NCBI GenBank assembly: GCA_038078735.1
Contig: JBBTTI010000003.1
Coordinates: forward strand, 8,538 to 72,537
Direction: 5' to 3'
Length of the DNA stretch: 64,000 bases
Origin: Patescibacteria group bacterium
GTDB lineage: Bacteria; Patescibacteriota; Minisyncoccia; Minisyncoccales; CAZWNE01
A program made the position numbers and the translations under genes. This document shows, in pieces, positions 4,501-11,387 of this stretch. Position 1 is the stretch's first letter. Each line of letters starts with the position of its first letter. A model generated the notes under the pieces. It saw only the letters and a list, made by a program, of their open reading frames with translations. It was not told the DNA's origin and ran no database searches.

Positions 4501-5472
4501 TTAATAATTTGTCGTAATCGTTCGGTGATAAGGCAATAACGGTTCATTTTCTTTAGATAAAACCCATAAAATCCAATCGAGATTACTTGATGTTAAACCC
4601 CTGCCTAAGCCGTTTAATTCCCCAAGGAGCAATTCACAAGCATAAATGGTATTTGTCCTTATTTCTATTTCTTCCCGAGAATTCTTTTCAATTAACTCAT
4701 AATTCGCGAGCTTATTCTTTAATTTTTCACTATAAACTAGTATCCCCTCTGACTCTAAAAGTTGTGGCAACTTATAATCGGCAAATATAGTTAGATCTTC
4801 CATGTTTTTAAAATATCCCGTATTCTTATTTTGAAAAGCGTAATTTATATCACTGACAAATAATTGGGCTCTTTTTAAAAAATATATCTTTTGTCCATTG
4901 GATTCGAAATAATCATTAAAACTTGGGAAATCATTAATAATTAACTCCACAAGTTTATTAACGTTATTTTTTGCCGCCGTAACTAAATTTATAGCCTTGC
5001 CATTATATTTTTCTTGAAGTATTTTAAAGTTTTCTCGGATAATTTCGTGTCGTTCTTTCAACAGTAATAACTCTCCCCTACTCTCAAAAATCTTAGCAAA
5101 TTCGTCAAAAGTTATTTCCGACAAATATGATGCATCAAGTAATTTTTTATCAGCTAAAAACGCTTTTTTAATCGCGTAAGAAAAAGCGTAATAGCCATGC
5201 AGCCACTGGTCGTCTTTTTCAAACTCCCACCGTTTTTTCTCTTGAGTATTCCAAAAACAAAAATTAATACTATCTAGAAAAAAATAGTATTGAACAGTTT
5301 CTTCGGGACTCCCTAAAAATTGCAAGACATTATCCCAGCCAGGAATAGGATATTTTTCAAGTTTTTTTGCTAAAAGAGTAATTTTCGAATTATCTATCCT
5401 AACCGAAGAACTGTTTTTTACAACAGGATCAATTGATCTTAAAATTTTTTCTTTGATAGAAATATTCTCCAT
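4501..5472 (-). CDS. DUF2419/Qng1-like queuosine salvage family protein (tentative)
   Basis: 323 aa. Motif pattern (IPGWDN, FFLDSINFCFW, LHGYYAFSYA) is recalled from the Qng1/DUF2419 family. The assignment is from memory and is not certain. Confidence 0.45.
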   Translation of the reverse strand: MENISIKEKILRSIDPVVKNSSSVRIDNSKITLLAKKLEKYPIPGWDNVLQFLGSPEETVQYYFFLDSINFCFWNTQEKKRWEFEKDDQWLHGYYAFSYAIKKAFLADKKLLDASYLSEITFDEFAKIFESRGELLLLKERHEIIRENFKILQEKYNGKAINLVTAAKNNVNKLVELIINDFPSFNDYFESNGQKIYFLKRAQLFVSDINYAFQNKNTGYFKNMEDLTIFADYKLPQLLESEGILVYSEKLKNKLANYELIEKNSREEIEIRTNTIYACELLLGELNGLGRGLTSSNLDWILWVLSKENEPLLPYHRTITTNY

Positions 5473-5522
5473 AATAAATCTATCATATCAAAAAATCGCC
5501 CCGATGAAAGAGGGACGATTTT

Positions 5523-5580
5523 TTTACTCTATAAATGTCAGGGCCTTGCCTTTTTTGTTCCAGCGGCCGGTTCGGCCGAA
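5523..5580. repeat. 58-bp copy of the helicase 3' end (direct repeat bounding island 1)
   Basis: tttactctataaatgtcagggccttgccttttttgttccagcggccggttcggccga nearly equals 6536..6592, which encodes ...GRTGRWNKKGKALTFIE-stop of the DEAD-box helicase. Confidence 0.8.
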
Positions 5581-5618
5581 TTAAGTGACTCCCGAAGTCG
5601 CTTAACTCCACAAATAGA

Positions 5619-5643
5619 ATGTTAGACACTAAGTACCTAACAT
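5619..5643. repeat. REP-like palindrome, family A (GTTAGACA..TGTCTAAC type, imperfect)
   Basis: atgttagacactaagtacctaacat. Shares the GTTAG..CTAAC arms with copies at 5937, 11598, 36102, 48340, 49009, 55250 and 55651. Confidence 0.7.
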
Positions 5644-5792
5644 CCGACCAGTAGTATAGTAGAGACCCGATCTCTACCTAAGACTTTGGCGATAAAATAA
5701 AAAACCACCCTTCAAATTCATCGGGATGATTTCTTATCCTACGTTATTAAACATTGAATGTTTGATAAACTACAAGTTTCTTTGCTAATAAG

Positions 5793-5917
5793 GGTATTTT
5801 TGAGTTGTCTATCTGGACAAAAGAACTGTTTTTTATAACAGGATCAATCGATCTTAAAATTTTCTCTTTTATAGAAATATTCTCCATAATATATTTATCC
5901 TATCAAAAAATCGCCTG
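5793..5917. pseudogene. duplicated 5'-end fragment of the DUF2419 gene (start codon + first ~30 codons + upstream hairpin)
   Basis: About 125 bp at ~88% identity to 5381..5507 (aagaactgttttttacaacaggatcaattgatcttaaaattttttctttgatagaaatattctccat...). It has no downstream gene body. Confidence 0.75.
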
Positions 5918-5936
5918 CTTGGCGATTCTTGTTGAG

Positions 5937-5961
5937 ATGTTAAACACTGAGTACCTAACAT
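5937..5961. repeat. REP-like palindrome, family A (degenerate)
   Basis: atgttaaacactgagtacctaacat. Confidence 0.6.
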
Positions 5962-6028
5962 TCTATTCTACTGGCACCCTATTGAAGTCAGGCTTCAATA
6001 GAGAGACTTTAACAGAGACTTAAAATAA

Positions 6029-6063
6029 AAAACCACCCTTTAATAAACTCAGGGTGATTTTTT
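6029..6063. terminator. bidirectional rho-independent terminator (A-run, CACCCT/AGGGTG hairpin, T-run)
   Basis: aaaaaaccaccctttaataaactcagggtgatttttt. A diverged paralogous copy lies at 5686..5720. Confidence 0.55.
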
Positions 6064-6214
6064 GTCCTAAATAAATCTTCTTTTGAACACTTACTTAGGG
6101 GAAAGAGAGAAGGGAGGAAAGGTTCTTGTTCTATCCTTAACTTTGTAATTACTCACAAAGGAAGTCCAATTACCCTTTTTAGGATTTCTCCACCTTGCCT
6201 TCTCTCTTATTGGG

Positions 6215-6436
6215 TTACGAGATTGCTTTCATCTGTTTTTGAAAAACTTCTTCTAACAAGCTCTTTGAAAGCTCAAGAAGTTCTTCAGCCGTTACGTGGA
6301 TGGCAACCATCTCTGGTTCCTTCACGGAATTACCAATATTCCGTTTAATATTGGCAATATCCCGAAGAGCCATTTCTTTCCGAAACTGAGCTTTTACAAG
6401 GGCTAAAGCTATCTCGCCTTTTCTCCTCTCGTCCAT
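6215..6436 (-). CDS. hypothetical 73-aa protein carried on island 1
   Basis: Strong SD (aaggaggtgagaacaATG) sits before MDERRKGEIALALVKAQ. The protein is charged, helical and unrecognised, and lies inside the inserted segment. Confidence 0.45.
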   Translation of the reverse strand: MDERRKGEIALALVKAQFRKEMALRDIANIKRNIGNSVKEPEMVAIHVTAEELLELSKSLLEEVFQKQMKAIS

Positions 6437-6536
6437 TGTTCTCACCTCCTTTCTGTAAAAATTTGGAAACGAGAGAGAAACCTTTAAGGTGCTTTGGAAA
6501 GAATTCTACTCTCTTTCCATACCATATGATAACACT

Positions 6537-7736
6537 TTACTCTATAAATGTCAAGGCTTTGCCTTTTTTGTTCCAGCGGCCGGTTCGGCCGATTCTGTGG
6601 ATATATTCGTCAAAAGTCGCCGGCACATCAAAATTAATAACATGGCTGACATCGGCAATATCAAGACCCCTAGCCGCCACATCAGTTGCCACTAAAATTT
6701 GAATACGGCTTTCTTTAAACATAGTTAGGGCTTTTTGGCGCTGGGAGTGATTTTTATTTCCGTGGATGGATTCCGCCCTAAAACCTTTTTGAATAAGTAT
6801 TTTTGAGAGCCGTTCCACTCCGTGCTTGGTTCTGCCGAAAATAAGCACCTTGGTAAATTCCTCTTTAATCAAAAGATTATCAAGAACATCTATTTTATTT
6901 TTACCCCGATCTATTCTGACAATATCCTGATCAACATTACTTGAAGTGTCTCTGGTTTTTACCGAAACTCTTATCGGATTTTTAAGAAATTCTTTGATAA
7001 TTTTTTCCACCGAGTAAGGAATGGTTGCCGAAAAAAACAGCACCTGTTTTTCTTTTGGCAAACCGTTCATTATAAAACGGGTGTCCTGGATAAAACCCAT
7101 ATCAAGCATCCGATCAGCTTCATCCAAAACAACGGTATTAAATCTGGATAAATTAATCATCCTTCTTTCTATCAGGTCCTTGAGCCGGCCGGGCGTGCCG
7201 ATAATTAAATTATAATTATAGCGAAGCTCGGAAATTTGTTTGCCGATGCTCATTCCGCCGACGCAGCAAACGGAAAAAATCCGCATTCCTTTAGTAAAAG
7301 ATTTAAGCTCCTGGTCTATTTGAATGGCCAACTCGCGGGTCGGAGTGACAATCAAAACTTGTTCTTTCGGATTTAATAAAATTTTATTAATAAGGGGTAT
7401 GAGAAAAGCGGCTGTTTTGCCCGTGCCGGTATTGGCAATACCGACAACATCCGAACCGTCAATAATATGAGAAATAATCCGATCTTGGATGGGCGTAGGC
7501 GCATCGTAACCTTTGGCCAAAATAGCCCGAATTATTCGCTGGTCAATTTTAAAATCCTGAAATTTGTGTTCAGATATAAAATTCTCCATTCCTTCTATCT
7601 TTTCAACTACGACTGCTTTATTAATAAATCTTGCCGGATCTATTCTTTCTCCGCGTGAAAACCCCCTTCCTCTAGAAGGGGGCGCTTTAGTCAAGAATTT
7701 TCTTGATCCCGTGTAATGAAAGTTTCTACTATACAT
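6537..7736 (-). CDS. DEAD-box ATP-dependent RNA helicase
   Basis: Q-motif, Walker A GTGKTAAF, DEAD (VLDEAD), SAT and HRIGRTGR motifs. Confidence 0.9.
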   Translation of the reverse strand: MYSRNFHYTGSRKFLTKAPPSRGRGFSRGERIDPARFINKAVVVEKIEGMENFISEHKFQDFKIDQRIIRAILAKGYDAPTPIQDRIISHIIDGSDVVGIANTGTGKTAAFLIPLINKILLNPKEQVLIVTPTRELAIQIDQELKSFTKGMRIFSVCCVGGMSIGKQISELRYNYNLIIGTPGRLKDLIERRMINLSRFNTVVLDEADRMLDMGFIQDTRFIMNGLPKEKQVLFFSATIPYSVEKIIKEFLKNPIRVSVKTRDTSSNVDQDIVRIDRGKNKIDVLDNLLIKEEFTKVLIFGRTKHGVERLSKILIQKGFRAESIHGNKNHSQRQKALTMFKESRIQILVATDVAARGLDIADVSHVINFDVPATFDEYIHRIGRTGRWNKKGKALTFIE

Positions 7737-7758
7737 ATAATAAAATTATACACTATCA

Positions 7759-8868
7759 CTATTGCTTTGTCAATAAATATTGCTTACCCTTTAATTTATC
7801 GGGTAAAAATGACTCTTTGGAGTATTTATCGTAACCGTTGCCGGGATTGTTACGCAGTTCCATGGGAATGGGCAAATTGCCATATTGTTTGACATCGGCC
7901 GTTGCCGCTATATAAGCTTCGTAAGCGCTCCGATCTTTTTTAGCTTGGCATAAATAAACCACTCCGGTTGCCAGATTAATGCCGCATTCAGGCAAACCGA
8001 TTATTTCTACTGCCCTAAAAACATCGTTAGCCACCACCAAGGCCGTAGGCAAAGCTAGGCCGATATCTTCTGAAGCAAAAATAACCATTCTTCTGGCGAT
8101 AAATTTGGGATCTTCCCCCGAATCAATCATCCGCGCCAAATAATACAAAGCCGCATCTGGCTGCGAAGCCCTCATGCTTTTAATAAAAGCGGAAATAGTG
8201 TTGTAATGCTCATCCCCTGCTTTGTCGTATCTTAAAAATTTTGACTGGAGAGCATTTTTTAAATTCTCTTTAGTAATTTCCTTATAAAGTTCTCTAGTAT
8301 TTTCCAGCATAGTTATCGCCTGCCTGGCATCGCCATTGGCCATGTTAATCAGCCAGTCCTCGGCTTCTTTATCCATTTTTAAACCGATTCTCTTGATAAT
8401 GGCTTTCATATTATCTTCTGAAAGTTCGTTCAAAACAAAAACTCGACAGCGAGAAAGCAGAGCCGGGATAACTTCAAAGCTTGGATTTTCAGTTGTCGCG
8501 CCAATCAAGGTAATCTCCCCTCTTTCAACATAAGGCAGTAAAAAATCCTGTTGTGATTTGTTAAAGCGATGGATTTCATCTAAAAATAAAACCTTGGGCA
8601 CTCCCTGCGAATCTTCTTCCAGTAATTTTTTTATATCTGCCTTGCCAGCTGAAACAGCTGATAATTCATAAAGCTTAGCGTCTAAACTATTGGCATATAT
8701 TTTAGCCAAAGTCGTTTTTCCTGTTCCCGGAGGCCCCCACAAAACAAAAGAAAACAAATGCTTTTGCTTTATAGCAACATTCAAGGGCCTATTCTCCCCG
8801 ACCAAATGTTCTTGCCCGACAAATTCCTCCAAATTTTTCGGTCTGATTTTCGACGCCAGCGGTTCCAT
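7759..8868 (-). CDS. rarA: replication-associated recombination protein A (AAA+ ATPase)
   Basis: [11 protein letters not shown] Walker A and a MgsA/RarA-type C-terminal domain. Confidence 0.85.
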
Positions 8869-8943
8869 AAATTTAGCTTACCTTTTCATTTCATCTCCGC
8901 CAAGAGACAACTATTTGGACATCGGATGTCCAAATAGCGTAGG

Positions 8944-9078
8944 CTATTTTTTATTTATGTATTTTAATAAAGCGATTATGCCTAAAACCAACAGGGTAGT
9001 CGCTAAAGTATAGGTAATCCAAGAAAAAAACATCATCCCGCCGCCTGCTCCGCCCATCATATAATTATAATCCATCAT
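8944..9078 (-). CDS. possible 44-aa Met/Gly-rich membrane peptide
   Basis: MMDYNYMMGGAGGGMMFFSWITYTLATTLLVLGIIALLKYINKK. It falls below the ORF-track cutoff, has no clear SD, and hairpins lie just upstream. Confidence 0.2.
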   Translation of the reverse strand: MMDYNYMMGGAGGGMMFFSWITYTLATTLLVLGIIALLKYINKK

Positions 9079-9261
9079 AGATCAAGTCCGCCTCTGGCGG
9101 ACGCAGATAAAGATGAAGCAACAGCTTCATCGCCTAATCGACCTTTCTATATTTTATTATACACTAAATTTTTAATTTATTATCAAACCCCACCAGTAGT
9201 AATAACTATGCTATAGCAATGATATTACTATTCCTAAATTTTATATTTGAATAAATAAGAA

Positions 9262-9292
9262 CGGGTAAACGCGAATGCGTTTACCCGTTTTA
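9262..9292 (+). terminator. hairpin + T-run (GGGTAAACGC..GCGTTTACCC-TTTT)
   Basis: Perfect 11-bp stem followed by tttta. Confidence 0.4.
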
Positions 9293-9374
9293 GCTCAATC
9301 TGTTGCCGAGCTTCTGTTATGCAGAAGCGAAGGCGAAGAAGAGATTTATCTCTTCGCCTAATTGTTTTGGCCAG

Positions 9375-10127
9375 TTATTTCTGGCCGAAGTAACCGGTCA
9401 ACACAGCGATTGGTCCAACCTGGTACTGGGCTAAAGAATTTAGGCCGACAAGTCTTCCTTCTTTATTAAAGTCGGGCTTATCTGTTAAAGGAATTAATCG
9501 GATATCATAACCGTGACCCTTCATACCAGGTGGTGGTCCGGGAGGACCATATTGATTCGCCGGCATACCAAATTCTTTAAAATTAGTCGTTATTTCTAAC
9601 GATCCTGCCGGCATCTTCCCAGGACTCGCGCCTTCAGGCAGTCCGTTAATTTCTGGCGGGAGTAATGCTGCCCAATGTAAGAAAACGTCTCCTGGGAAAG
9701 TACTACAAGGGGGCATTTTCCCATACACAGGCACCTCTTGATTACAAGGAAAGTCAGGATCGGTCATTACCAATAAAAGAGCCTTTGTCCCGACTGGAAT
9801 ACCTCCCCATTTAAGAGGTGGAGAAACCGCTTTTTCGCCTGCATATTTTTGTGGAATCACGCCACCGGATATGAAAGCTGGCGAATATATAAAAAGTTGA
9901 AAACCAGCATCACCTTTCAGACCTGCTGGACCTGCCGGACCACGATCACCGGCTGAGCCAGCTGGACCTCTTTCTCCGGGCGGACCGTTGACTCCGTTTT
10001 TACCTGCCGGCCCTACTGGGCCCATTGGTCCGATTGGACCTTGAGAACCAGTTATCCCGGGTGCCCCTTGGCATGCCACAACTAAAACCAAAATCAGTGC
10101 CAATGCTACCAAGTATATTTTTTTCAC
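9375..10127 (-). CDS. lipoprotein with collagen-like GXY repeats fused to a PEBP (YbhB/YbcL) domain
   Basis: Signal peptide plus lipobox (VVAC). 18 consecutive Gly-X-Y triplets ([25 protein letters not shown]...). C-terminal PEBP motifs ([31 protein letters not shown]). GC content is locally elevated. Confidence 0.7.
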
Positions 10128-10215
10128 CTTTCCTCCTTATTTTTTTACAGATTGAGCTGGGTTGCTGGCGTTATATTAACATCCTCCAAAGCTTTGTCAA
10201 TTAAATTGCTTCTTG

Positions 10216-10244
10216 TTGATGTATTTTAATCCAAGTGGTATATT
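10216..10244 (+). promoter_or_regulatory. sigma70-like promoter (TTGATG-17-TATATT) upstream of the SWIB gene
   Basis: Hexamers at consensus 17-nt spacing, 47 nt before the ATG. Confidence 0.35.
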
Positions 10245-10290
10245 AAGATAGTAAGGTAAAGGTCGGGCAATAAATTTTTAAAAAAATACT

Positions 10291-10545
10291 ATGGCAAAAT
10301 CTAACTCTGCGTTCATGAAGCCGATGAAAATCAGCTCCGAGTTGGCTGAAGTCGTCGGCAAAGGGCCCATGCCCAGATCCGAAGTTGTTAAAAAACTTTG
10401 GGTATATATCAAAAAGAATGCGCTTCAAAATCCCAAGAACAAAAGAAATATACTGGCTGATGCAAAATTGAAGGCGGTATTCAGCGGTAAGGGCGAGGTT
10501 TCGATGTTTGAAATGACCAAGCTTGTTTCAAAACACTTGTCTTAA
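10291..10545 (+). CDS. SWIB/MDM2-domain protein
   Basis: 84 aa aligning to the SWIB fold (SSELAEVVGKGPMPRSEVVKKLWVYIKKNALQNPKNKRNI...MFEMTKLVSKHL). Confidence 0.7.
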   Translation: MAKSNSAFMKPMKISSELAEVVGKGPMPRSEVVKKLWVYIKKNALQNPKNKRNILADAKLKAVFSGKGEVSMFEMTKLVSKHLS

Positions 10546-10557
10546 GTTAAGAATAAG

Positions 10558-10602
10558 AAAGAGCGGATCTACACATGGTGTGCAGAACCGCTCTTTTTTT
10601 TG
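10558..10602 (+). terminator. rho-independent terminator
   Basis: AGAGCGG...CCGCTCT stem followed by an 8-T run. Confidence 0.7.
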
Positions 10603-10637
10603 CGTTAAAAGGGTAAGACGTCAGTCGTCAATAATCA

Positions 10638-11387
10638 TTAATGAACTTTGGCGAGACCAGTTCCTCCCCTAAGATTCGCACCCCCAGTCTTGCAGTAGCC
10701 CTCGATAACTCCGCAGGCATTATTGAAAAGATCCACATTAAAGCCCGATCCATAGGTTTTAGCCATCTCAAGAGAAATATCCCAAGTTTTTATTTGGCCA
10801 TTCTTGAGGAGCTGCTCCAGCACCGTTTTTTTGCAAATAGTATCCATCTGCATCTCGACCCAGGGAGGGCAATAGGGATCCAATCGTTTCTTATACTCTG
10901 CCAGCTTTATCTTGAGTTGGTTTTGACGTTTCTTATCTTCAGGCAAAACAAGAACCGGTGATTCCTTCTCTTTTTCGAGCCTTTCGATGATATTCTGGAG
11001 ATCACCCCGTAAACCTTCTACTATTCTTTCGGGTTTCAGAAAATCTTTAATGATTTCGGGAAGAACCCAGTTTTTTGACTCTTCGCCAGGTTTTGGATTG
11101 GCATCTTTTACGTGAATACGAAAACGTGGACTATCATTAATGCCAATCACGACACCGTCCCATTTGTCTTTCTCTTCCTGGGTAAGTTCCCGGGTCGTAG
11201 CCTTGGGGAATTTAACATTGATGAAGCCGAATCCTTCAACCCAGTTCCCGATGTAATTTTCATCGTCTTCCCCATGGATACTACACAGGTTGGGAGTCTT
11301 GCTACTAATGTCTCCGAGCAGGTGTATAGCTTTTGTTGCCATCATGTAGCGATGCGGTATGTCCTTCCATTTTTTCTCCTCTGCCAT
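10638..11387 (-). CDS. hypothetical protein (249 aa)
   Basis: Long ORF with locally higher GC and no recognisable family. The charged central region is followed by a Cys/Gly-rich C-terminus. Confidence 0.5.
   Translation of the reverse strand: MAEEKKWKDIPHRYMMATKAIHLLGDISSKTPNLCSIHGEDDENYIGNWVEGFGFINVKFPKATTRELTQEEKDKWDGVVIGINDSPRFRIHVKDANPKPGEESKNWVLPEIIKDFLKPERIVEGLRGDLQNIIERLEKEKESPVLVLPEDKKRQNQLKIKLAEYKKRLDPYCPPWVEMQMDTICKKTVLEQLLKNGQIKTWDISLEMAKTYGSGFNVDLFNNACGVIEGYCKTGGANLRGGTGLAKVH

What the first reader, a model, noticed from the sequence alone, without database searches (positions are those of the whole stretch)
9375..10127. Secreted lipoprotein fusing 18 collagen-like GXY triplets to a PEBP (YbhB/YbcL) domain
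A signal peptide and lipobox are followed by an uninterrupted 54-residue (G-X-Y)18 tract rich in Pro, then a complete PEBP domain.

Bacterial collagen-like proteins usually present globular domains on a triple-helical stalk. A PEBP cargo domain on such a stalk is unusual and could be a surface-displayed ligand-binding or host-interaction protein. The locally high GC is partly explained by Gly/Pro codons.
Basis: partly seen in the sequence, partly recalled or inferred. Interest (0 to 1): 0.55.

Follow-up and report, generated by a model that had tools for sequence, protein, structure and literature searches.

The report
Collagen-stalked PEBP lipoprotein of a Patescibacterium
A groundwater ultra-small bacterium encodes a real but very rare membrane-anchored protein in which a short collagen-like spacer starts one residue after the lipid anchor and carries a PEBP-type ligand-binding domain; the architecture is solid, but triple-helix formation and the ligand are unproven.

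Summary
The gene is on the minus strand (9375..10127, 250 aa). The GXY tract has 19 uninterrupted triplets (residues 21-77), not 18.

Pfam scores both domains above threshold (PBP 65.9 bits, Collagen 36.5 bits). The AF2 model of residues 78-250 matches YbhB, YbcL, CT736 and Rv2140c (TM 0.73-0.81). A lipobox (VVAC) sits one residue before the first Gly.

The exact protein is an NCBI 'hypothetical protein' of a Patescibacteria MAG and recurs unchanged in Hainich groundwater assemblies.

The fusion is rare. Only 8 such proteins were found among about 5.8 billion clusters and 1.8 billion representatives. At least two Patescibacteria lineages carry it. Their nearest relatives, mostly Gemmatimonadota lipoproteins, have a disordered linker where the collagen tract sits.

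An otherwise 97-100 % identical sister strain carries a PEBP half that is only 52 % identical, with saturated synonymous sites. The breakpoint lies inside the collagen tract, so the cargo has been swapped by recombination.

The most likely role is a lipid-anchored surface PEBP pocket held about 16 nm from the membrane. Trimerisation and the ligand remain untested. I rate it a new variant of known kinds, of moderate interest.

The parts
10173..10200 (-). sigma-70-like promoter candidate (TTGACA-16 nt-TAATAT with TG)
   Evidence: Consensus scan, 10 of 12 matches. This is a consensus match only.
10132..10137 (-). Shine-Dalgarno AGGAGG, 4 nt before the GTG start
   Evidence: Read from the sequence. 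The same GTG start is used in the sister-strain locus L001.
10071..10127 (-). Type II (lipoprotein) signal peptide, residues 1-19, with lipobox V-V-A-C19
   Evidence: Sequence. The Cys is conserved at the end of the h-region in every signal-bearing homologue (alignment A1). It fits the [LVI][ASTVI][GAS]C definition quoted in PMC12462473.
9897..10067 (-). Collagen-like tract, 19 uninterrupted G-X-Y triplets (residues 21-77); Pro in 8 of 19 X positions
   Evidence: Pfam Collagen 36.5 bits against a cut-off of 27.2. The DNA is not tandemly repeated.
9950..9965 (-). Approximate 5' recombination breakpoint between the conserved signal and N-terminal collagen module and the divergent cargo half, near codons 55-59
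   Evidence: Window versus L001: nucleotide identity falls from about 90 % to 50-65 % at about 9958. dS is 0.32 upstream, and synonymous sites are saturated downstream.
9378..9896 (-). PEBP (YbhB/YbcL-type) domain, residues 78-250. Motifs: DPDFP 123-127, H151-W152, GPPGPPPG 194-201, H205-G-Y207
   Evidence: Pfam PBP 65.9 bits. AF2 pLDDT is mostly above 85. Foldseek hits 1vi3, 1fux, 1fjj, 3n08 and 4beg at E 1e-10 to 1e-12. PDB profile hits at E 1e-22 to 6e-27. Motif positions.
9690..9746 (-). Subfamily-specific insertion between DPDxP and HW (residues 128-146, [19 protein letters not shown]). This allele alone has two Cys here (C128, C141)
   Evidence: The insertion is absent from YbhB, YbcL and CT736 in the profile alignment and from P0016-P0023. 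Cys positions. A disulphide is inferred, not shown.
9375..9377 (-). stop codon
9260..9289 (-). intrinsic-terminator-like hairpin (13-bp stem, 7 GC pairs) about 85 nt after the stop

Best explanation
This is a monocistronic gene for an extracytoplasmic lipoprotein of a groundwater Patescibacterium.

Proposed mechanism:
1. The protein is exported by Sec. The lipobox Cys19 is lipidated and becomes the N-terminus, anchoring the protein in the outer face of the cell membrane (inferred from sequence).
2. The collagen-like tract starts one residue later. It occupies exactly the position that a 10-40-residue disordered linker occupies in the closest relatives, so it acts as the spacer or stalk (shown by alignment).
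3. If it is triple-helical, it is a rod of about 16 nm (57 residues x 0.286 nm). That would hold the C-terminal domain away from the membrane, within or beyond the wall layer.
4. I think it is somewhat more likely than not that three chains, concentrated and put in register by their adjacent lipid anchors, form a marginally stable hydroxyproline-free triple helix at groundwater temperature. This would give a trivalent display, as in collectins, C1q or BclA (inferred, not tested).
5. The cargo is a divergent YbhB/YbcL-type PEBP domain that keeps the canonical anion-binding pocket motifs and has a subfamily-specific loop beside the pocket. It most likely binds a small anionic or phosphorylated ligand, or a partner protein, outside the cell. 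The ligand is unknown.
6. The cargo-encoding half is exchangeable. A sister strain carries a very different PEBP allele joined within the collagen tract. This is typical of exposed surface proteins.
For: Gene reality and expression signals. The identical protein with 0 SNPs occurs in at least 8 contigs from several samples.

Domains:
- Pfam hits for both domains.
- AF2 model with a confident PEBP part.
- Foldseek TM 0.73-0.81 (normalised to target) to YbhB, YbcL, CT736 and Rv2140c.
- PDB profile hits.
- Pocket motifs are invariant across 19 family members: D123, D125, H151, W152, P196, P198, P199, H205, Y207.

Lipoprotein: the lipobox Cys is conserved in all homologues that have a signal peptide.

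Stalk role:
- In Gemmatimonadota and other relatives (P0004-P0015, P0291) the same position holds an Ala/Ser/Gly/Asp-rich linker.
- Fusion members carry 6-19 triplets, so tract length varies.

Constraint on the collagen pattern:
- 101 triplets in 8 proteins have no interruption.
- Pro occupies 53 of 101 X positions but only 16 of 101 Y positions.
- The DNA is non-repetitive.
- The tract starts one residue after the Cys in 6 of 8 proteins.
- The same Cys-then-collagen arrangement occurs in proteins with other cargos: P0063, P0064, P0098, P0119.

Feasibility: hydroxyproline-free Scl2 fragments of 75-237 residues melt at 23.5-35.6 C, and folding depends on chain concentration (PMC7824840).

Cargo exchange:
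- The flanking genes are 96.8-100 % identical to L001 in protein, but the PEBP part only 52 %.
- Breakpoint at about 9958.
- dS is 0.10-0.33 in the flanks and N-terminal collagen, against pS 0.76 (saturated) in PEBP.
- The L001 allele has foreign-looking GC3 (0.54 against a background of 0.37), while the window allele is native at 0.36.
- The P0002 PEBP groups with the high-GC P0003, not with P0001.
- L001 and L002 are identical and come from two independent runs.
Against: - No trimerisation domain is present. Solved bacterial PEBPs are not known as trimers (my knowledge).
- The tract joins the first PEBP strand with no linker, so three heads would have to pack or the last triplets would have to fray.
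- 57 residues with 18 % Pro and only 12 % charged residues is shorter and less charged than proven bacterial collagens.
- One family member (P0133) has only 6 triplets, too short for a stable helix. The family function therefore does not strictly need a triple helix.
- AF2, run on a single chain, gives pLDDT below 50 for the tract.
- No Lgt or LspA was recognisable in the 64-kb window, and this is the only lipobox ORF in it.
- No conserved neighbours or operon point to a ligand.
- The protein falls below the NCBIfam YbhB/YbcL subfamily cut-off (40.2 against 57.75).
- The Arg of the HRY motif is Gly here.
- The cargo-swap inference rests on two alleles only.
Confidence: 0.6

Rival explanations
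1. The G-X-Y tract never forms a triple helix. It is a monomeric, extended, polyproline-II-like low-complexity spacer that took the place of the usual disordered linker. The protein would work as a monovalent tethered PEBP domain.
For: - The closest relatives use plainly disordered linkers at the same place.
- The tract varies from 6 to 19 triplets, and 6 is too short for a helix.
- There is no trimerisation module.
- Charge content is low at 0-12 %.
- AF2 confidence for the tract is low.
Against: A mere spacer does not need Gly at every third residue. Yet 101 triplets in 8 diverged proteins contain no break. Pro is biased to X (53) over Y (16), and the DNA is not a young tandem repeat. The tract scores above Pfam's Collagen cut-off. 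Adjacent lipid anchors would supply local concentration and register.
Confidence: 0.33
2. The PEBP cargo acts as a tethered protease inhibitor that protects the cell surface. Some PEBP-family proteins do this (yeast Tfs1 with carboxypeptidase Y). The protease-resistant collagen tract would then be a fitting tether. This rival concerns the cargo's function only and is compatible with the architecture described above.
For: The fold search and the PDB profile both reach the carboxypeptidase Y inhibitor 1wpx_B (Foldseek E 8.8e-4; profile E 9e-6). The review PMC8793217 lists protease inhibition among reported PEBP activities. The location is extracytoplasmic.
Against: The match to 1wpx_B is far weaker than to YbhB, YbcL and CT736, whose functions are unknown. 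No protease gene is linked. No inhibitory loop could be identified.
Confidence: 0.12
3. The protein is not lipidated. The signal peptide is removed by signal peptidase I and the collagen-PEBP protein is released, or retained in the wall, as a soluble protein.
For: No Lgt or LspA motif was found in the window, and there is no other lipobox ORF in it. Lipoprotein processing in this lineage was not verified.
Against: Cys at the end of the h-region is conserved in every homologue from several phyla. The VVAC sequence fits the lipobox rule. The 64-kb window is only a small part of the genome.
Confidence: 0.1

Closest known systems
E. coli YbhB / YbcL, C. trachomatis CT736, M. tuberculosis Rv2140c (bacterial PEBP family, PF01161)
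   Same: Same fold and pocket motifs: DPDxP, HW and GPxPPxGxxH-x-Y. Foldseek TM is 0.73-0.81. Profile E-values are 1e-22 to 6e-27 over the full domain. YbcL is also extracytoplasmic (periplasmic; PMC8793217).
   Different: - About 20-25 % identity.
- A 13-17-residue insertion next to the pocket.
- The Arg of HRY is replaced.
- Below the TIGR00481 cut-off.
- Lipid-anchored rather than soluble.
- Carries a collagen tract that none of the solved proteins has.
Lipoprotein PEBPs of Gemmatimonadota/Longimicrobiales and related MAGs (P0004-P0015; loci L006-L011)
   Same: These are the nearest sequence relatives, about 47 % identical over the PEBP domain. They share the insertion (EVPVYGxMPPPGT), the lipobox Cys and the overall length.
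   Different: Their Cys-to-domain linker is a disordered Ala/Ser/Gly/Asp-rich stretch, not G-X-Y repeats. They come from high-GC diderm lineages.
Bacterial collagen-like surface proteins (Scl1/Scl2 of S. pyogenes, Lcl of Legionella, BclA of B. anthracis)
   Same: Uninterrupted hydroxyproline-free G-X-Y repeats form a stalk between an anchor and a globular domain. Pro is enriched in X. Repeat number varies between alleles.
   Different: - Not a member of these families: NCBIfam Scl and Lcl models score 33-38 bits against cut-offs of 325-500.
- Much shorter: 19 triplets, against about 79 in Scl2.
- Low charge.
- Anchored by an N-terminal lipid rather than LPXTG or the exosporium.
- No recognised trimerising head (V domain or C1q-like domain).
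Animal 'defence collagens' (collectins such as MBL, ficolins, C1q, adiponectin): analogy only
   Same: Short collagen stalks of about 20 triplets (my knowledge) carry C-terminal ligand-binding heads. Trimerisation converts weak binding sites into avid ones.
   Different: There is no homology. Those heads trimerise by themselves or through a coiled-coil neck, the stalks are hydroxylated, and the proteins are soluble oligomers rather than lipoproteins.
Synthetic lipidated collagen-model peptides ('peptide-amphiphiles'): analogy only, from my own knowledge
   Same: Lipid tails placed directly at the N-terminus of a short G-X-Y peptide align the chains and raise triple-helix stability. Here the lipidated Cys is one residue from the first Gly in 6 of 8 family members.
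   Different: Those are man-made and usually contain hydroxyproline. No natural counterpart is established. My literature search did not retrieve the primary papers.

Membership tests
PEBP / YbhB-YbcL family (Pfam PF01161) | Profile match above Pfam's gathering threshold | tested here: met
   65.9 bits against 24, residues 91-222
PEBP / YbhB-YbcL family (Pfam PF01161) | PEBP fold (two-sheet beta core with C-terminal element), superposable on solved members | tested here: met
   AF2 pLDDT is mostly above 85 for residues 78-250. Foldseek hits 1vi3, 1fux, 1fjj, 3n08 and 4beg at E 7e-12 to 3e-10, TM (target-normalised) 0.73-0.81.
PEBP / YbhB-YbcL family (Pfam PF01161) | Pocket signature motifs DPDxP, His of the HW motif, GPxPPxGxxH(R)Y | tested here: met
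   D123-P-D-F-P127, H151-W152, G194PPGPPPG201 and H205-G-Y207 are present. They are invariant across the subfamily. Only the Arg of HRY is substituted: Gly here, Ala or Lys in relatives.
PEBP / YbhB-YbcL family (Pfam PF01161) | NCBIfam YbhB/YbcL subfamily model TIGR00481 above its cut-off | tested here: not met
   40.2 bits against 57.75. The YbhB and YbcL equivalog models score 30-33 bits against 226-277. The protein is a divergent branch, not an orthologue of YbhB or YbcL.
PEBP / YbhB-YbcL family (Pfam PF01161) | Binding of an anionic or phosphoryl ligand in the pocket | not testable with these tools
   Needs biochemistry or a structure.
Bacterial collagen-like proteins (Pfam PF01391) | Uninterrupted (G-X-Y)n and a profile match above threshold | tested here: met
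   19 triplets, residues 21-77. 36.5 bits against 27.2.
Bacterial collagen-like proteins (Pfam PF01391) | Formation of a homotrimeric triple helix | not testable with these tools
   Only single-chain prediction is offered, and the tract has pLDDT below 50. Indirect evidence for: 101 unbroken triplets in 8 homologues and Pro biased to X. Indirect evidence against: short length, low charge and a 6-triplet member.
Bacterial collagen-like proteins (Pfam PF01391) | An adjacent protein domain that nucleates trimerisation (V domain, C1q-like head, coiled coil) | tested here: not met
   The only other module is PEBP. The tract abuts the lipobox Cys on one side and the first PEBP strand on the other. 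The lipid anchor is proposed as a substitute, by inference.
Scl1/Scl2, Lcl adhesin families (NCBIfam NF038329, NF038330, NF046116) | Equivalog model score above cut-off; LPXTG anchor for Scl | tested here: not met
   32.6-37.5 bits against cut-offs of 325-500, matching the G-X-Y tract only. The C-terminus, GYFGQK, has no LPXTG.
Bacterial lipoproteins (Lgt/LspA substrates) | Lipobox [LVI][ASTVI][GAS]C after a positive n-region and a hydrophobic h-region | tested here: met
   [19 protein letters not shown]19. The rule is as quoted in PMC12462473.
Bacterial lipoproteins (Lgt/LspA substrates) | Conservation of the lipobox Cys in homologues | tested here: met
   The Cys aligns in all homologues that retain a signal peptide, and in P0121, P0133, P0290 and P0144.
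Bacterial lipoproteins (Lgt/LspA substrates) | Lgt and LspA encoded by the organism | tested here: inconclusive
   A motif scan of the 64-kb window found neither. The rest of the genome was not available.

The most novel reading that the evidence does not exclude
A natural 'lipidated collagen'. The acylated Cys directly abutting the G-X-Y tract would act as the registration and nucleation knot that lets a short, hydroxyproline-free tract fold into a triple helix without any protein trimerisation domain.

The result would be a rigid stalk of about 16 nm showing three PEBP pockets. An ultra-small, lipid-auxotrophic Patescibacterium could use it for multivalent capture of phospholipid head-groups, or other phosphorylated molecules, from its host or surroundings.

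The cargo domain would be swapped between strains by recombination inside the collagen repeat. The same lipid-plus-collagen module would serve as a general display platform for other cargos (P0063, P0064, P0098, P0119).
Probability: 0.12. Interest if true: 0.8.

Novelty: new variant of a known kind. Interest (0 to 1): 0.45.

Why it matters
Bacterial PEBP proteins have no settled function, and they are rarely fused to anything. A clade that is lipid-anchored, extracytoplasmic and mounted on a collagen-like spacer fixes where the domain acts: outside the cell, at a set distance from the membrane. It also gives a handle for ligand hunting.

For collagen biology, a lipid anchor placed one residue from a short hydroxyproline-free tract is a testable natural case of anchor-assisted triple-helix formation. 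It may also be a general display module in uncultured bacteria.

For Patescibacteria, exposed proteins with exchangeable heads are candidates for host or phage interaction, which is the least understood part of their biology.

None of this is demonstrated. At present this is a well-documented rare architecture plus one clear case of allelic cargo replacement.

Tried and rejected
- **Assembly chimera for the divergent sister allele: rejected.** L001 and L002 come from two independent runs and are identical over 3252 bp. Both junctions are flanked by near-identical sequence.
- **In-situ fast evolution or DGR-type mutagenesis of the PEBP half: rejected.** Synonymous sites are saturated (pS 0.76) along the whole 170-codon domain, while the flanks have dS 0.1-0.33. 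I made no explicit search for a reverse transcriptase.
- **The window's own gene as a recent foreign import: not supported.** Its GC3 of 0.36 equals the background. The sister allele looks imported instead.
- **Recent tandem DNA duplication as the cause of the G-X-Y periodicity: rejected**.
- **Operon or neighbourhood clues to function: none.** The neighbours are RarA, SWIB, an ABC-F ATPase, a DEAD helicase and queuosine salvage. Context is not conserved in other carriers.
- **Phage or defence origin: no support.**
  - There is no relative in IMG/VR and no PADLOC hit.
  - PHROG hits are generic collagen segments of tail fibres, plus one PEBP family of unknown function.
- **Collagen tracts in 80 PEBP loci of GTDB species representatives: none found**. 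The scan pattern did not match the window's own sequence, so this genome set was not exhaustively tested.
- **JGI metagenome scan:** only one truncated locus.
- **Second word-seeded protein search:** it was swamped by collagen words and added only P0290 and P0291.
- **Taxon names by exact look-up:** none returned for the other fusion carriers. A UvrB search placed L087 in Patescibacteria.
- **Lgt/LspA motif search in the window:** negative.
- **Literature searches:**
  - Collagen-like proteins in Patescibacteria/CPR returned nothing relevant.
  - The general bacterial collagen-like architecture search did not mention PEBP.
  - The bacterial PEBP searches and the YbhB review mention no collagen fusion.
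  - PMC3099711 and PMC4096566 are not held.
- **AFDB fold library:** unavailable.
- **Rfam:** nothing at 5000-11000.
Full report
**1. The observation**

The ORF at 9375..10127 is real, but it lies on the minus strand.
- It starts with GTG, four bases after an AGGAGG Shine-Dalgarno sequence.
- It has its own promoter-like site (TTGACA-16-TAATAT, 10200..10173) and a strong hairpin terminator (9289..9260).
- The neighbouring genes are unrelated housekeeping genes: RarA/MgsA at 7759..8868 and a divergently oriented SWIB gene at 10291..10545. Further out lie an ABC-F ATPase, a DEAD helicase, queuosine salvage and DNA polymerase III gamma/tau. The gene is therefore monocistronic.

The 250-residue product begins [19 protein letters not shown], with a lipobox V-V-A-C19.
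- After one residue (Q20) come 19 uninterrupted G-X-Y triplets (residues 21-77).
- This is the only such tract in any frame of the window.
- Pfam finds Collagen (36.5 bits, cut-off 27.2) and PBP/PEBP (65.9 bits, cut-off 24).
- The raised GC comes from codon positions 1 and 2 (0.79 and 0.71 in the tract). GC3 is 0.29-0.36, which equals the window background of 0.367 +/- 0.059.

**2. The cargo domain**

An AF2 model built on a 19-sequence alignment has pLDDT mostly above 85 for residues 78-250 and below 50 for the collagen tract.
- Foldseek against the PDB puts E. coli YbhB (1vi3, 1fjj) and YbcL (1fux), Chlamydia CT736 (3n08) and M. tuberculosis Rv2140c (4beg) on top, with E 7e-12 to 3e-10 and target-normalised TM 0.73-0.81.
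- A family profile hits the same chains at E 6e-27 to 4e-22 over the full domain.
- The pocket motifs are present and invariant in the subfamily: DPDFP 123-127, H151-W152, GPPGPPPG 194-201 and H205-x-Y207.
- Two things set the subfamily apart. One is a 13-17-residue insertion between DPDxP and HW (EVPVYGxMPPPGT; here [19 protein letters not shown], with two Cys unique to this allele). The other is loss of the Arg of the HRY motif.
- The protein stays below NCBIfam's YbhB/YbcL subfamily cut-off (40.2 against 57.75) and far below the Scl and Lcl adhesin models.

It is therefore a divergent PEBP-family member. It is not an orthologue of YbhB or YbcL, and not an Scl- or Lcl-type adhesin.

**3. Organism and distribution**

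The exact protein is NCBI 'MAG: hypothetical protein AAB451_00655 [Patescibacteria group bacterium]'.
- It recurs, with no nucleotide difference in the gene, in at least 8 contigs. These include Hainich well H14 assemblies from 0.2- and 0.1-um filters.

Searches covered about 5.8 billion protein clusters and 1.84 billion representatives read exhaustively by HMMER. Only eight proteins have the architecture lipobox plus G-X-Y tract plus PEBP:

| Protein | Triplets |
|---|---|
| P0001 (this one) | 19 |
| P0002 | 15 |
| P0003 | 12 |
| P0121 | 10 |
| P0271 | 11 |
| P0290 | 10-11 |
| P0133 | 6 |
| P0144 (truncated fragment) | 17 |

- Their contigs range from 38 to 58 % GC.
- The 28-kb contig carrying P0133 is patescibacterial by its UvrB. 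The best named hits, at 75-77 % identity, are Nealsonbacteria and Patescibacteria. At least two Patescibacteria lineages therefore carry the fusion.
- The nearest collagen-free relatives (about 47 % identity) are lipoproteins of Longimicrobiales, Gemmatimonadales and similar MAGs. They have an Ala/Ser/Gly/Asp-rich linker of 10-40 residues between the lipobox Cys and the domain.
- P0291 is the collagen-free sister of P0290 and P0133.
- No relative was found in IMG/VR.

The collagen tract therefore sits exactly in the linker position of a pre-existing lipoprotein family. Its length has changed repeatedly, or it has been gained and lost.

A review of YbhB homologues states that fusions are infrequent and does not list collagen (PMC8793217). 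My other literature searches found no description of this architecture.

**4. Is the tract a triple helix?**

This could not be tested directly, because only single chains can be modelled.

Evidence for:
- 101 triplets in eight diverged proteins have no interruption.
- Pro takes 53 of 101 X positions but only 16 of 101 Y positions. Y is mostly Ala or Gln.
- The DNA is not a young tandem repeat.
- The tract contains stabilising features known from model peptides (my knowledge): GPx triplets, Arg in Y (GER, GDR) and one K-G-D pair.

Evidence against:
- 57 residues is short for a hydroxyproline-free helix. Scl2 fragments of 75-237 residues melt at 23.5-35.6 C (PMC7824840).
- Charged residues are only 12 %.
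- No trimerising domain exists.
- P0133 has just six triplets.

One anatomical regularity is suggestive. In 6 of 8 members the first Gly is two residues after the lipidated Cys. The same Cys-then-collagen arrangement occurs in proteins with unrelated, unannotated cargos: P0063, P0064, P0098 and P0119.

Triple-helix folding depends on chain concentration (PMC7824840). Membrane-inserted lipid tails next to the tract would concentrate and align the chains. From my own knowledge, synthetic lipidated collagen peptides are stabilised in this way, and groundwater at roughly 10 C would tolerate a low melting point.

I put the triple helix at somewhat above even odds. If it forms, it is a rod of about 16 nm.

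**5. An unexpected finding: the cargo half is exchangeable**

Locus L001 is syntenic with the window. L002 is identical to it and comes from a second, independent run.
- Protein identity in the flanks is 96.8 % for the 249-aa neighbour, 100 % for SWIB and 98.9 % for RarA. The PEBP domain is only 52 % identical.
- Nucleotide identity is about 90 % through the signal peptide and the first 12 or so triplets. It drops to 50-65 % at about position 9958, inside the collagen tract, and recovers partly after the stop codon.
- By Nei-Gojobori counts, the flanks and N-terminal collagen part have dS 0.10-0.33 and dN 0.04 or less. The PEBP part has pS 0.76 (saturated) and dN 0.45.
- This rules out local fast evolution and points to recombination with an anciently diverged allele.
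- The L001 PEBP part has GC3 0.54, against about 0.37 background. It groups with the high-GC P0003 rather than with P0001. The window's allele has native GC3 (0.36) and sits on a long separate branch.

The sister strain therefore appears to have imported its cargo, and the window carries the resident, strongly diverged version. With two alleles this is a clear single case, not yet a pattern. It fits an exposed surface protein.

**6. Most likely mechanism**

Shown:
- A real, conserved, independently transcribed gene.
- A lipobox with a conserved Cys.
- A collagen-pattern tract in the linker position.
- A complete PEBP fold with an intact pocket signature.
- Allelic replacement of the cargo.

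Inferred:
- Export and lipidation at Cys19.
- A spacer or stalk role for the tract, probably as a lipid-registered homotrimer.
- Extracellular binding of an anionic or phosphorylated ligand, or of a partner protein, by the PEBP pocket and its adjacent subfamily loop.
- Avidity gained through trivalency.

The ligand is unknown. The genomic context gives no hint, and bacterial PEBP function is itself unsettled.

Rivals:
- A monomeric PPII-like spacer (about 0.33).
- A tethered protease inhibitor as the cargo function (about 0.12). This rests on weak similarity to the carboxypeptidase Y inhibitor 1wpx_B.
- A non-lipidated secreted form (about 0.1). No Lgt or LspA was found in the window.

**7. 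Verdict**

The protein is a new variant built from known parts: a PEBP lipoprotein clade whose linker has become collagen-like. It is very rare in current sequence space and, as far as I could search, undescribed.

Interest is moderate at 0.45. The architecture and the cargo swap are solid. The attractive ideas, namely a natural lipid-nucleated mini-collagen and multivalent ligand capture by an ultra-small symbiont, remain untested.

Noticed in passing
window 8869-9374, and L001 2096-2944: The roughly 500-bp non-coding stretch between the PEBP gene and RarA holds extra hairpins (8910-8938, 9112-9131). It is the second variable part of the locus. The sister strain L001 has about 300 extra bases here with a 99-aa Cys-rich ORF that is absent from the window.
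   Followed up: partly
window 5349-5500 / 5764-5915 and 5523-5579 / 6536-6592: There are two direct repeats. A 152-nt repeat (84 %) duplicates the 5' end of the queuosine-salvage gene, leaving a 46-aa remnant ORF at 5747-5887. A 57-nt repeat (96 %) duplicates the 3' end of the DEAD-helicase gene. Together they bracket about 1 kb that looks like an insertion or segmental duplication and contains a 76-aa ORF (6215-6445).
   Followed up: partly
window 10638-11387 (-): A 249-aa protein two genes upstream, beyond the SWIB gene, is 96.8 % conserved in the sister strain. It has no Pfam, PHROG or PADLOC match.
   Followed up: no
loci L016, L018, L019, L021, L025, L028, L032, L044, L050, L076: In Alphaproteobacteria (Rhodospirillales, Hyphomicrobiales, Paracoccus and others) the PEBP domain is the C-terminus of proteins of about 725-760 aa that begin with an ABC-transporter ATPase sequence. 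This is a different and apparently widespread PEBP fusion.
   Followed up: no
proteins P0063, P0064, P0098, P0119: Other environmental proteins also have a lipobox Cys followed within 1-4 residues by a long collagen tract, then a C-terminal region with no confident Pfam domain (P0063 has only a sub-threshold CBM_5_12 match). This suggests a general 'lipid anchor + collagen stalk' display module.
   Followed up: partly
protein P0122 (1295 aa): This giant protein has about six tandem PEBP domains followed by repeated Ig-like segments. P0126, P0140 and P0151 are double-PEBP lipoproteins or secreted proteins. Extracytoplasmic PEBP arrays exist.
   Followed up: no
window 9375-10127, PHROG scan: The PEBP part matches a phage protein family of unknown function (phrog_5139, E 1.3e-8). 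This fits with YbcL being prophage-encoded in E. coli. The collagen part matches many phage tail-fibre families, though only through the G-X-Y segment.
   Followed up: no
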